From Octopus sinensis (lineage: Eukaryota), in contig NW_021828506.1 in assembly GCF_006345805.1 (NCBI RefSeq), forward strand, positions 1 to 8,132: a stretch of DNA of 8,132 nt. The letters are read 5' to 3'. Below, in pieces: positions 3 to 8,132 of the stretch. The notes under the pieces were generated by a model, which worked only from the letters and a program-made list of their open reading frames with translations, ran no database searches and was not told where the DNA came from. A program made the translations under genes and the position numbers. Every line of letters begins with the position of its first letter. The stretch's first letter is position 1.

Positions 3-333
3 AGACAAGTGTATCAGTGATTCAGACGTTTCTAAGATGGCCGAAGATATGTCGACATTGACGATCGTTCTGGGAGGCCCGCAACCATCAGAACTGAGAA
101 AAACTTCGCAGCTGCGAAAGGGAAATCGTCGAATCATCATCGGTGAGTTATCAGAGGATGTGTAGATTGGTTATGCTTCAGTTCAGTTCATTATAAATGA
201 AAATTTGGGTATGAGACGCGTGTCTGTCAAGTTTGTAGCAAAACTCCTTTCAGCTGACCAAAAAGACAGTCGGGTTTCAGTTGCACAAGAGCTACTTGAT
301 TGTGTCAAGAGCGATGAAAACTTGTTGGAAACT
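3..333 (+). pseudogene. Mariner transposase pseudogene: HTH region, linker and start of the catalytic domain
   Basis: Frame 3 reads RQVYQ*FRRF*DGRRYVDIDDRSGRPATIRTEKN. After a frameshift, frame 1 reads NRRIIIGELSEDV*IGYASVQFIINENLGMRRVSVKFVAKLLSADQKDSRVSVAQELLDCVKSDENLLET. This contains the RSGRP motif and the WVPHEL-equivalent linker (KFVAKLL). It has three stops and breaks off just before the expected TGDE motif. Confidence 0.92.
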
Positions 334-412
334 TTCTGTAGGCTACTGAGTAGGTATCGCCAAGCATTTGGCAAAATTTGCTGCAAAGTCTCTACTCCAT
401 TTCCTCTGTCAT
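329..412 (-). pseudogene. Mariner transposase N-terminus, inverted copy
   Basis: The minus strand from ATG at 412 reads MTEEME*RLCSKFCQMLGDTYSVAYRKF, matching the mariner N-terminal EQRxCIKFCxKLGxT pattern. It is preceded on the minus strand by about 190 bp of leader plus TIR-like sequence (413-601). Confidence 0.8.
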
Positions 413-645
413 GATCAATACCATCAGCACACGTTACACACGTTACTTCCAAGCACTGCTGTATATAGCGAAGTCAACTAGAATCTTAAAACTTAGTGCG
501 CATGCACACCAAAGTTGAAAGTCAATCTGTGCCAATTGGATTTACTCTGTGAACTTTAGCTTTGTTATTATGGCAATAGTCTGGATACCTATTGATCAGA
601 CAATTAATAAGTTCTCGTATACTCCATTTTCCGTTTTTCATTTGC

Positions 646-4502: not shown

Positions 4503-4568
4503 TATATATATATATATACCAAATATATACGTTATTATTATTATTTCCAATTTACTTGATCATCGGTA

Positions 4569-4982
4569 TCTCTTTTCTCTTTACTCTTTTACTTGTTTCA
4601 GTCATTTGACTGTGGCCATGCTGGAGCACCGCCTTTAGTCGAGCAAATCGACCCCGGGACTTATTCTTTGTAAGCCCAGTACTTTTCTATCGGTCTCTTT
4701 TTGCCGAACCGCTAAGTGACGGGGACGTAAACACACCAGCATCGGTTGTCAAGCAATGCTGCTAGGGGGACAAACACAGACACCAAACACACATACATAT
4801 ATATATATATACATATATACGACAGGCTTCTTTTCAGTTTCCGTCTACCAAATCCACTCACAAGGCATTGGTCGGCCGGGGCTATAGCAGAAGACACTTG
4901 CCCAAGATGCACGCAGTGGGACTGAACCTGGAACCATGAGGTTGGTTAGCAAGCTACTTACCACACAGCCACTCCTGCGCCT
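4569..4982 (-). mobile_element. Full-length tRNA-derived SINE, family B copy 2
   Basis: The minus strand starts AGGCGCAGGAGTGGCTGTGTGGTAAG with A box TGGCTGTGTGG (4971-4961) and B box GGTTCAGTCCC (4928-4918). It has a CORE-like CTTGGGCAAGTGTCTTCT, an internal (TA)/(TG) microsatellite at about 4775-4820, and a 3' end CTCCAGCATGGCCACAGTCAAATGACTGAAACAAG with an (AAAGAG)-like tandem tail. Confidence 0.93.
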
Positions 4983-5034
4983 ATATTATTGTATATTATT
5001 GTTATTTTATTTTTAATATTTCTATTACATGTAA

Positions 5035-5325
5035 CTAGCATTATCGCCCGGCGTTGCTCGGGTTTGTAAGGGAAATAACTATATAAGCATTTTTAGAGAG
5101 TTACTTCCCTTATATAATAGCAAAAAAATACATTAAAAATGGGAAGAAATGATGGTAATTTTTTTTTTAATCGCAGACTCATCGTAGACGCGCGCTAATA
5201 CCCAGAAGGGCTCGATACGACTATAGATACCCGCTTTTGGTTAAACTGCACCGCAAAATGTGGGAGTAGTTAGGAATCTAAATCGTAGTGGAGACAGACA
5301 CAGAACTTCACTTTTAATATAAAGA
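5035..5325 (-). mobile_element. Complete non-autonomous Helitron, 291 bp
   Basis: Minus strand: host A | 5'-TCTTTATATTAAAAG ... CCCGAGCAACGCCGGG (GC-rich hairpin, 5062-5047), 8 nt, CTAG-3' (5038-5035) | host T. All canonical Helitron hallmarks are present: 5' TC, subterminal hairpin, 3' CTRR, A|T target and no TSD. Confidence 0.88.
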
Positions 5326-5518
5326 TTTCTAGATGGTGTAATTTTAATTGTTTTTTTTGAATTGATAAAAGGTGGTTTTTTTTCTAATTTTTTATAGACA
5401 TTATATTTTGTGAAATTTGATTTAGTATTTCTAAATTGAATTTTCCCTGTAAGTTAGGAATAATATTCCCTCAAATTATTATTATTATATTATTATTATT
5501 ATTATTATATATATATAT

Positions 5519-5728
5519 AACGGGAAGCTTTATGAAAATAAACAAACGACGGAAAGGTGTGGAATACAAACAAACAATTGTATTAGTATGGCGCTCAGGA
5601 ATAGAAAATAAAACAAGTCTTTTACGTTTCGAGCCACGCTCTTCAACAGAAAGATACACAGAAAGAAACACAGAAAGAAACAAGGAGAGAAAAAAATGCG
5701 TGCAGAAGCTAGCGAATCAACATGGCGA
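5519..5728 (-). repeat. Probable interspersed repeat inserted in a (TA)n tract, with a degenerate hammerhead-like motif (possible Penelope-like terminus)
   Basis: A complex 210-bp island bounded on both sides by TA repeats. The minus strand has CTGTTGA-A-GAGC-GTG-GCTC-GAAACGT at 5649-5624. There is a short tandem duplication of ACACAGAAAGAA near 5656-5680. Confidence 0.5.
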
Positions 5729-5992
<264 letters not shown>

Positions 5993-6001
5993 TTATTTAT
6001 G

Positions 6002-6299
6002 TGGAGGCGCAATGGCCAGTGGTTAGGGCACCGGACTCGCGGTCGTAGGATCGTGGTTTCGATTCCCAGACCGGGCGTTGTGTGTTTATTGAGCGAAAAC
6101 ACCTAAAAGCTCCACGAGGCTCCGGAGGGGTGATCCCTGCTGTACTCCTTCACCACTCTTACTCTCACTCTTTCTTCTGTTGTCCTGCTCGCTTAGCCAG
6201 CGGGGTGGCGTCATTCGAAGGCTAAAACAATGCGTACGCATTGTGACCAGCGATGTGTAGCAACATCTGATGGTCTGGTCAGTCACGTGATCACGTGAT
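6002..6299 (+). mobile_element. Full-length tRNA-derived SINE, family C
   Basis: Starts GGAGGCGCAATGGCCAGTGGTTAGGGCA with A-box-like TGGCCAGTGG (6013-6022) and B-box-like GGTTTCGATTCCC (6055-6067). It has structured 3' hairpins and a (TCACGTGA)x2 tail at 6283-6298, and is flanked by TA repeats. Confidence 0.9.
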
Positions 6300-6520
6300 A
6301 TATATTTATATATATATATATATATGTATTGAATATTATTTGCCAACATAATGTGGCAGTTCCGGTTGGTACGAAAGTTAGTTATCTAGTCCCAGGAAAC
6401 TTCGCCTCCAGCTGGCTATATTGATTCGAATGAATATAGTACTTGATTTAGATGCACCAGAATTTTGTATGGTGTTATCCATAAAAATTTGTGGAGTGAT
6501 CATAATCAAAATATGCAACA

Positions 6521-6638
6521 AGAATGACTCCGGTAATTTGGTACAATCGTTTCGTACTACACCATTTTATTAAATGTTGTAAGTATTACAACCGATTTAA
6601 GATGCTGAGTACTCATCAGCCAATTATAGAGGTTTTCC
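6521..6638 (-). ncRNA. Type I hammerhead ribozyme (predicted), left copy
   Basis: Minus strand: TAATTGG-CTGATGA(6619-6613)-GTACT-[49 nt]-AGTAC-GAAA(6553-6550)-C-GATT-G-TA^CCAAATTA. The conserved core is complete, with a 5-bp stem II base closed by G10.1-C11.1, stem III AC/GT, a GUA cleavage triplet and stem I TAAT-TGG/CCAAATTA. Confidence 0.8.
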
Positions 6639-6754
6639 AGTCAGCGGAAAGACTTCACTACCTCATATGTTCTTAAAATTTAAATCTACATCTTTGTCTG
6701 TATATCTACCTTCTCTATAATGTTACCACTTGATTTAAAAACTTTTGTATTAAT

Positions 6755-6871
6755 GGAAAACCTCTATAATTGGCTGATGAGTATCAGCATCTTAAATCTG
6801 TTGTAATAATTACAAACATTAATAAAATGATGTAGTACGAAACGATTGTACCAAATTACCGGAGTCATTCT
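6755..6871 (+). ncRNA. Type I hammerhead ribozyme (predicted), right copy
   Basis: TAATTGG-CTGATGA(6774-6780)-GTAT...GTAC(6835-6838)-GAAA(6839-6842)-C-GATT-GTA(6848-6850)^CCAAATTA. Stem I extends through CTCT(6762-6765)/GGAG(6861-6864) and GGAA(6755-6758)/TTCT(6868-6871). One C is deleted from stem II relative to the left copy. Confidence 0.75.
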
Positions 6872-7217
6872 TGTTGCTTATTTTGAGTATATATATATAA
6901 TCAAAATAAGCAACAAGAATAACTTCGGTAATTTGGTACCAAATTACCGAAGTATTCTTGTTGCTTAATTGATTATAATAACCCATTTGATTTATATGGA
7001 TAACACCATACAAAATTCTGGTGCATCTAACTTAAGTACCATATTCATTTGAATCTAAATTTTGCTGAACTTATATATATATACATATGCACGACATATG
7101 GAGTAGGTGTAAATATATATATGTATTATATATGTACGCATGTAAAAATAAAAAATAAAAAAAGGATAAATAGAATAAAATAAAGTTTGAATTTTAACCG
7201 TTGTCCTGGAAAAGAGT

Positions 7218-7836: not shown

Positions 7837-7890
<54 letters not shown>
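7523..7890. repeat. (CA)n/(TG)n, (CATA)n and (TA)n microsatellite cluster
   Basis: Read directly: (AC)n 7524-7548, (TG)n 7551-7567, degenerate CA/CATA at about 7650-7840, (AT)n 7841-7890. Confidence 0.95.
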
Positions 7891-7892
<2 letters not shown>

Positions 7893-8132
7893 CGGAGTAA
7901 CACACACAAATGTGAAACAAGGTGGAAAAACGAGTACTCAAATACCAGTGGTCGAGTAGTAATATGCTTTATTTTAAGCAGCAGAAACAGATTTATATTC
8001 ATACGCCTGTATATGTATGGCGTTGGCACGCATCCTTCTGTGTATGTTGATATATATATGTACACGTTAACATAAATTGTATTGCAGGGTATATTTTATA
8101 ATAGGTTTAATTTCTAAGCTTTAATTATACTT

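What the first reader, a model, noticed from the sequence alone, without database searches (positions are those of the whole stretch)
6896..6977. Nested hairpin whose symmetry axis sits at the predicted ribozyme cleavage site
Seen: the near-perfect 82-bp palindrome ...CTTCGGTAATTTGG-TA-CCAAATTACCGAAG... is centred at 6937/6938. Its arms are the sequence that begins at the predicted 3' cleavage product (GTA^CCAAATTACC...), so the axis lies 1 nt from the scissile bond. This roughly 40-bp segment therefore occurs four times: 6503-6541 (-), 6851-6890 (+), 6898-6936 (-) and 6939-6977 (+). Both nested arms share the variant CCGAAGT, whereas the ribozyme-bearing copies have CCGGAGT. Inference: this may be a footprint of reverse transcription reaching the 5' end of a self-cleaved RNA and folding back, which would be indirect evidence of in vivo activity, and it may derive from a second template variant. 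Alternative: the GTAC micro-palindrome there simply primes DNA-level fold-back.
Basis: partly seen in the sequence, partly recalled or inferred. Interest (0 to 1): 0.75.

Follow-up and report, generated by a model that had tools for sequence, protein, structure and literature searches.

The report
Two-armed Penelope stub beside ribozyme cut
The hairpin is a separate, tiny two-armed insertion of a Penelope-type jumping gene whose arms were likely copied from uncut RNA and joined at a four-base self-pairing word next to the predicted ribozyme cut, so it likely does not record self-cleavage, although across the family copies end exactly at that predicted cut about three times more often than at four control positions.

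Summary
The hairpin is real (axis 6937/6938, 1 nt from the predicted GTA^CC cut), but it is not a local fold-back of the neighbouring copy. It is an independent head-to-head stub of a Penelope-like element. The short arm (6897-6939) ends at the family's +39 end, the long arm (6936-~7071) runs to its ~+135 end, both sit in (TA)n, and they come from a different subfamily than the adjacent copies. Nine other genomic hairpins near the cut have this build. Of 70 head-to-head pairs, 63 join one long and one short arm and none two long arms. Either arm can reach further 5' (15 vs 16), which needs two cDNAs, not one fold-back. The junction keeps GTA from 5' of the cut, and the CC|GG palindrome 10 nt away gives 14 symmetric hairpins against 2 at GT|AC. 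So this copy likely records microhomology joining on uncut RNA. A side result: arms ending exactly at the cut number 17, against 8, 8, 3 and 1 at controls (3x; about 9x in this hairpin's subfamily, post hoc), a modest hint of minority cleavage in vivo. The scan noted the same kind of stub in other genomes.

The parts
6897..6939 (-). Short arm (A2) of the stub: element positions -3..+39 (0 = first base after the predicted cut), ending at the family's short 3' end; subfamily 2 (CCGAAGTTA)
6936..6939 (.). GTAC junction: 4-nt palindromic overlap shared by both arms (positions -3..0); holds three bases from 5' of the predicted scissile bond
   Evidence: same junction in L033-L035
6936..7071 (+). 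Long arm (A3) of the stub: positions -3..about +135, ending at the family's long 3' end (tail of about 97 nt beyond +39); subfamily-2 haplotype
6888..6899 (.). (TA)n run between the short end of the older copy and the short end of the stub; inferred target of the stub insertion
   Evidence: sequence; family ends abut (TA)n
7072..7082 (.). (TA)n flank at the long end of the stub
6638..6890 (+). Neighbouring insertion, short arm R (-214..+39), with a type I hammerhead motif (core 6774-6780, GAAA 6839-6842, predicted cut 6850|6851; one base missing from the 5' strand of stem II relative to the family); subfamily 1
6423..6639 (-). Neighbouring insertion, long arm L (-98..+118), with a type I hammerhead motif (core from 6619, predicted cut 6542|6541); its long end is shorter than usual; subfamily 1

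Best explanation
The hairpin is an independent, very short head-to-head insertion of a Penelope-like element, likely made by two cDNAs primed from the two ends of a cut in (TA)n, likely on RNA that the ribozyme had not cut, and likely joined through the 4-nt GTAC palindrome. Shown: the arms end at the family's two fixed 3' ends (about +39 and +135), sit in (TA)n, belong to subfamily 2 while the neighbouring copies belong to subfamily 1, and the same build recurs genome-wide. Inferred: the GIY-YIG endonuclease opens both strands; reverse transcription starts at the two internal sites, one per target end; both cDNAs stop near the structured ribozyme region; their 3' ends anneal at a palindromic word (GTAC here, CCGG more often) and are filled in. 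The axis falls 1 nt from the predicted cut because the GUA^C triplet and the next base form a palindrome.
For: Family is a PLE: GIY-YIG endonuclease C-terminus upstream of the pLTR in L015/L024 (Pfam GIY-YIG E = 2e-4, 21.8 bits, just under the 22.6 cutoff). 605 exact short-end/(TA)n junctions genome-wide. 9 of 9 other family hairpins with the axis within 6 nt of the cut have one short and one long arm. 63 of 70 head-to-head pairs are long+short, 6 short+intermediate, 1 short+short, 0 long+long. Among 31 long+short pairs whose arms differ by 4 nt or more at the 5' end, the long arm reaches further in 15 and the short arm in 16. Symmetric axes among the 70: CC|GG 14, GT|AC 2, TAC|GTA 2, GA|TC 2, CA|TG 1. 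76 of 95 sampled short arms extend past -4, so the template is usually uncut or religated. 2 of 34 TA-flanked stubs listed start at the cut. Published: internal RT starts mark the tail, both strands are cut and extended, ribozyme mutants still insert, no RNA-seq ends at the cut (PMC11167929).
Against: Arms ending exactly at position 0 number 17 against 8 (-5), 8 (-16), 3 (+5) and 1 (-8): 3.0x, p about 0.001; in subfamily 2, to which this hairpin belongs, 10 against 4 (8.8x, p about 1e-4, post hoc). 3 of the 4 GT|AC hairpins are subfamily 2, though subfamily 2 also lacks the competing CCGG palindrome. The central TA could also arise after run-off at 0, by re-priming of the cDNA's GG end at CC(+8,+9), which is followed by TAA. 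21 of 70 junctions are symmetric, more than independent cDNA ends would give without trimming. No read spans the locus.
Confidence: 0.74

Rival explanations
1. Same independent two-armed insertion, but on self-cleaved RNA: both cDNAs ran off at position 0, and the central TA was added without template or by re-priming at CC(+8,+9) before joining. The junction would then be a cleavage footprint.
For: 3x excess of arm ends at exactly 0, about 9x in subfamily 2. Some of those junctions carry short or repeated templated insertions, as expected at a fixed free cDNA end (L178, L180). 3 of 4 GT|AC hairpins are subfamily 2.
Against: The TA (and the G) match template bases 5' of the cut, so no extra step is needed. 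0 of 10 family hairpins show the GG|CC or GGA|TCC join. 17 of 21 subfamily-2 ribozymes have U.U where G10.1-C11.1 is usual (PMC4209133 calls this pair highly conserved). In the 140-arm set position 0 has 8 arms, close to +7 (7), -2 (7), -20 (7), +4 (6) and +5 (6), and +1 and -1 have none. Six of the 17 ends at 0 have 2-4 nt of microhomology, one through stem I itself.
Confidence: 0.17
2. One cDNA (from +135) folded back on itself at GTAC, copied itself, and was cut at +39 by the endonuclease (self-priming).
For: 21 of 70 junctions are symmetric. +39 lies in an ATT-rich word, the motif that the anole enzyme cuts (PMC11167929). Self-priming and endonuclease resolution were proposed in PMC3846280 and PMC8557442.
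Against: In 16 of 31 asymmetric pairs the short arm holds 5' sequence that the long arm lacks, as does this window's outer pair (-214 against -98); one folded cDNA cannot give that. In L213 the arms differ at two subfamily-diagnostic sites. It may still apply to some symmetric junctions.
Confidence: 0.06
3. Local DNA-level template switch (inverted triplication of the adjacent copy), or an assembly artefact.
For: The window is a whole small contig of 8132 bases; no listed read or contig bridges the hairpin.
Against: The arms carry another subfamily's haplotype than the neighbours, end at the two family ends, and differ from each other by indels; the same build stands alone at 9 chromosomal loci.
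Confidence: 0.03

Closest known systems
Endonuclease-bearing Penelope-like element insertion with inverted 5'-truncated pLTR and a tail at one end (PMC3846280, PMC8557442)
   Same: Head-to-head arms, palindrome at the inverted junction, extension at one end only, AT-rich microsatellite target, C-terminal GIY-YIG domain, hammerhead in the pLTR, N-rich insert before the endonuclease domain as in Adineta Pen2a.
   Different: The extension here is about 97 nt, not 30-40 nt; both arms are cut down to the pLTR end; the one-long-one-short rule is counted here (63 of 70, no long+long).
Poseidon element of Anolis carolinensis, PAc (PMC11167929)
   Same: Two internal RT start sites that define the tail; cutting and extension of both target strands; ribozyme not needed for insertion in vitro.
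   Different: PAc showed no difference in start site between strands in vitro, whereas genomic pairs here nearly always use one site per arm; a small excess of ends at the predicted cut is seen here, while no RNA-seq ends were found there.
L1 twin priming
   Same: Both target ends prime cDNA, and the two cDNAs join by microhomology to give a 5' inversion.
   Different: In L1 the two pieces cover different parts of the RNA; here both arms copy the same 0..+39 stretch, from two fixed internal start sites.
Metazoan type I / minimal PLE hammerheads (PMC4209133)
   Same: CUGAUGA and GAAA cores, short stem III with a mostly palindromic loop, predicted dimer-dependent cleavage.
   Different: Stem II is extended by about 47 nt; subfamily 2 mostly has U.U at 10.1/11.1; no activity tested.

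Membership tests
EN+ Penelope-like element | C-terminal GIY-YIG endonuclease with CCHH motif upstream of the pLTR | tested here: met
   Translation of L024/L015; Pfam GIY-YIG E = 2.3e-4, 21.8 bits against cutoff 22.6; CCHH read by eye from the translation
EN+ Penelope-like element | PLE-type reverse transcriptase in the same ORF | not tested
   Loci held reach only about 1.4 kb upstream of the cut; no full-length copy was fetched, so the clade (Penelope/Poseidon, Neptune, other) is not assigned
EN+ Penelope-like element | Inverted 5'-truncated pLTR with a tail at one end | tested here: met
   46 of 95 sampled short arms have an inverted partner; 63 of 70 pairs long+short
EN+ Penelope-like element | AT-rich / (TA)n target | tested here: met
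   605 exact short-end/(TA)n junctions; ends
Type I hammerhead ribozyme | CUGANGA and GAAA cores, UH triplet, three stems | tested here: met
   Both window copies; 97 motif matches in held loci; compensatory fifth pair of stem II and palindromic loop III (GATC against AATT) in sister families. No Rfam hit
Type I hammerhead ribozyme | Self-cleavage activity | not testable with these tools
   Active fold is about 4 kcal/mol above the MFE in both subfamilies; only contigs, no raw RNA reads, were available
Footprint of a self-cleaved template (this junction) | Arms begin at position 0 with no base from 5' of the cut | tested here: not met
   Both arms match the template to -3; GTAC overlap
Footprint of a self-cleaved template (family level) | Excess of 5' ends exactly at the scissile bond | tested here: inconclusive
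   17 against 8, 8, 3, 1; only four uneven controls, microhomology confound, no clear peak in the 140-arm set or among TA-flanked stubs
Non-LTR retrozyme | Tandem array of 2 or more units, each with a complete hammerhead | tested here: not met
   Copies are inverted or solo; the stub has no hammerhead core

The most novel reading that the evidence does not exclude
This family's junctions record two things about Penelope transposition in the germ line. Each inverted insertion is built from two cDNAs, one from each internal start site (63 of 64 classifiable pairs). And a minority of template RNAs (roughly 1-2% of arms) were cut by the element's own hammerhead in vivo, seen as a 3x excess of arms ending on the scissile bond, about 9x in the subfamily of this hairpin, which could itself be such a product.
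Probability: 0.33. Interest if true: 0.6.

Novelty: new member of a known kind. Interest (0 to 1): 0.33.

Why it matters
The hairpin itself is an ordinary product of a known insertion pattern, and a caution: the hammerhead's GUA^C word is palindromic, so a hairpin axis at the cut is weak evidence of cleavage. The family-wide counts are more useful. The role of PLE hammerheads is open (PMC8557442 calls it unclear; PMC11167929 found them dispensable in vitro), and how the inverted arm and tail form is unexplained. The strict long+short pairing, with either arm reaching further 5', argues against self-priming as the general route and gives a direct in vitro test. The excess of ends at the cut, if it survives full-genome mapping, would be genomic evidence of occasional cleavage in vivo.

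Tried and rejected
Rfam scan: no ribozyme family, only microsatellite- and hairpin-driven miRNA matches below gathering score. A local inverted triplication by replication template switch was my first idea; rejected by subfamily haplotype and fixed ends. An apparent common inversion point at -98 was an artefact of my first reference and was dropped. 5' ends near -104, -116 and -185 to -196 partly reflect subfamily divergence from the reference copy (L024) and were not read as hot spots. The A after position-0 ends (14 of 17) is not specific: 6 of 8 ends at -5 are also followed by A. Constrained folding showed no clear difference between subfamilies (median 3.7 against 4.1 kcal/mol). Sequencing runs: no RNA holder listed on record, all runs laid were contigs, and no listed piece spans the stretch; this is no evidence either way. 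A pattern search for a compact hammerhead in the window found none because stem II is long. The relaxed window scan printed nothing through a script fault; redone. Control patterns at -16 caught many sister-family copies, which were dropped. No empty-site allele was searched for. The mariner-like fragment was not confirmed by Pfam.

Full report
Observation. The window is a whole 8132-base contig of a 2.7-Gb genome rich in (TA)n. The palindrome is there: 16+16 perfect bases about 6937/6938, and 6896-6977 at 93%; z = -14.5 against shuffles. Two type I hammerhead motifs lie beside it, with predicted cuts at 6850|6851 (+) and 6542|6541 (-). I number positions from the first base after the cut (0). 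The layout is L (-98..+118, minus), R (-214..+39, plus), a (TA)n run, A2 (-3..+39, minus) and A3 (-3..about +135, plus), then (TA)n.

The family. A search with R gave 1951 candidates, 40 scored. Longer copies carry the C-terminus of a GIY-YIG endonuclease, an N-rich stretch before it and about 700 nt of 3' UTR after it (Pfam E = 2.3e-4, just under cutoff): a Penelope-like element. The RT was not fetched. Copies stop at two fixed 3' ends, about +39 and +135, each running into (TA)n; 605 exact short-end junctions exist. Of 95 short arms taken in genome order from the first 100 of those 605 (a few are local duplicates), 46 have an inverted partner, 76 extend past -4, 5 end between -4 and +1 and 14 end further 3'. 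Most templates were therefore uncut or religated.

The hairpin is a separate insertion. A pattern for hairpins with the axis within 6 nt of the cut gave 11 loci: the window, 9 family loci and 1 unrelated repeat. All 9 have one short and one long arm, the same build as A2/A3, standing alone. Among 105 long arms, nine diagnostic columns split two subfamilies; A3 is subfamily 2 and L is subfamily 1.

Two cDNAs, not one fold-back. With fixed anchors and gaps of 2-63 bases I collected all 70 head-to-head pairs (43 + 27; one is a local duplicate; the window is missed through a 1-base deletion). 63 are long+short, 6 short+intermediate, 1 short+short and none long+long. Among 31 long+short pairs that differ by 4 nt or more at the 5' end, the long arm reaches further in 15 and the short arm in 16. 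A folded-back long cDNA cannot give a short arm with more 5' sequence, and a short cDNA cannot template the long arm. This fits priming from both target ends at two internal start sites. PMC11167929 (parts 1-2 of 4 read: results, start of methods) reports that the anole element cuts and extends both strands and starts internally at two sites that bound the tail. The asymmetry by arm is my inference from genomic copies.

Is the axis a cleavage footprint? Against: the arms overlap at GTAC (-3..0), which holds three bases that a cleaved RNA lacks. Run-off from two cleaved ends would give GG|CC or, with an added A, GGA|TCC; neither occurs among 10 family hairpins. Symmetric axes among the 70 pairs are CC|GG (+9/+10) 14, three of them with one substitution, GT|AC 2, TAC|GTA 2, GA|TC 2 and CA|TG 1; four of these five are 4-8-nt palindromic words of the element or next to one, and AA|TT and the upstream GT|AC gave none. 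A looser anchor shared with sister families found 135 hairpins with gaps up to 30, i.e. axes mostly 3' of the cut. Of 34 distinct TA-flanked stubs in the first 100 rows, 2 start at the cut. In the 140 arms, position 0 has 8 ends, similar to +10 (8), +7, -2 and -20 (7 each).

For a minority footprint: patterns for arms that end exactly at a given base gave, after removing copies that continue, other repeats and duplicates, 17 of 24 matches at 0, 8 of 14 at -5, 3 of 4 at +5, 8 of 34 at -16 (33 examined) and 1 of 7 at -8. Weighted for capture this is 3.0x, p about 0.001. The excess sits in subfamily 2 (10 against 4; 8.8x) and is not significant in subfamily 1 (7 against 16; 1.5x); this split is post hoc. 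Caveats: four uneven controls with different anchors; 6 of the 17 have 2-4 nt of microhomology; and 17 of 21 subfamily-2 ribozymes have U.U at 10.1/11.1, where PMC4209133 (part 1 of 4 and passages read) reports a highly conserved G-C. Stalling of RT at the three-way junction would give a similar signal. Three of the four GT|AC hairpins are subfamily 2, which also lacks CCGG, so either reading fits. The central TA could come from re-priming at CC(+8,+9) after run-off, so cleavage is not excluded for this copy; I put it at about 0.17.

Reads. All runs offered were contigs; none listed spans the locus. An artefact is unlikely on internal grounds (unequal arms, family ends, other subfamily, 9 chromosomal twins) but is not excluded by reads.

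Known and new. Inverted 5'-truncated pLTRs, junction palindromes and a tail at one end are described (PMC3846280, passages and Discussion read, proposing self-priming; PMC8557442, passages read, proposing endonuclease resolution and calling the ribozyme's role unclear). bioRxiv 10.64898/2026.07.22.740005 (part 1 of 5 read) links retrozymes to pLTRs; this locus is not a tandem retrozyme. Four searches listed no paper whose title or abstract start reports twin priming of PLEs or genomic ends at the PLE ribozyme cut; most subscription papers are not covered. Earlier notes of this scan describe like stubs in other genomes, with both readings; I saw them after reaching my reading and they are not independent support. 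Verdict: real, a new member of a known kind; interest 0.33, carried by the pairing rule and the modest excess at the cut, not by this hairpin.

Noticed in passing
window 166-414 (+): Frame reading like a mariner-type transposase fragment (LGMRRVSVKFVAKLL; resemblance recalled); 1-610 matches 3 of 293 held loci at about 75%.
   Followed up: partly
window 6330-6422: The left arm ends early at +118 in a 24-nt imperfect palindrome (6416-6439) and abuts another low-copy repeat (3 of 293 loci, about 80%); its normal long end may have been lost.
   Followed up: partly
window 5519-5726 and 7885-8030: Two further (TA)n-flanked repeats (20 and 6 of 293 loci). The first has a degenerate hammerhead-like core on the minus strand near 5620-5650 (by eye; not passed by the scan); both may be pLTR stubs of other Penelope families.
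   Followed up: partly
window 4555-4985, 5030-5330, 6000-6297: Abundant interspersed repeats (117, 8 and 23 of 293 loci); 6000-6297 looks like a tRNA-derived SINE by eye.
   Followed up: no
L255-L278: Sister Penelope families share the ribozyme core, with a compensatory pair in stem II and a different but still palindromic loop III (AATT), and also form short hairpins: a ready set of independent tests for the excess at the cut.
   Followed up: partly
L180:1500-1580, L178, L234: Junctions with repeated short templated insertions, like template jumping or polymerase-theta-type joining.
   Followed up: no
L213 (G000:C21:9570964): The two arms differ at two subfamily-diagnostic sites, which suggests that two different RNA molecules templated one insertion.
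   Followed up: no
L015:160-500 on the minus strand, L024: Asparagine-rich insert just before the endonuclease domain, as described for Adineta Pen2a (PMC3846280).
   Followed up: no
short 3' end of the family: Short ends read either ...TTTTGAT-TATATA (as the template) or ...TTTTGAG-TATATA, a recurrent G not seen in long arms at that place; unexplained, perhaps a mark of priming at this site.
   Followed up: no
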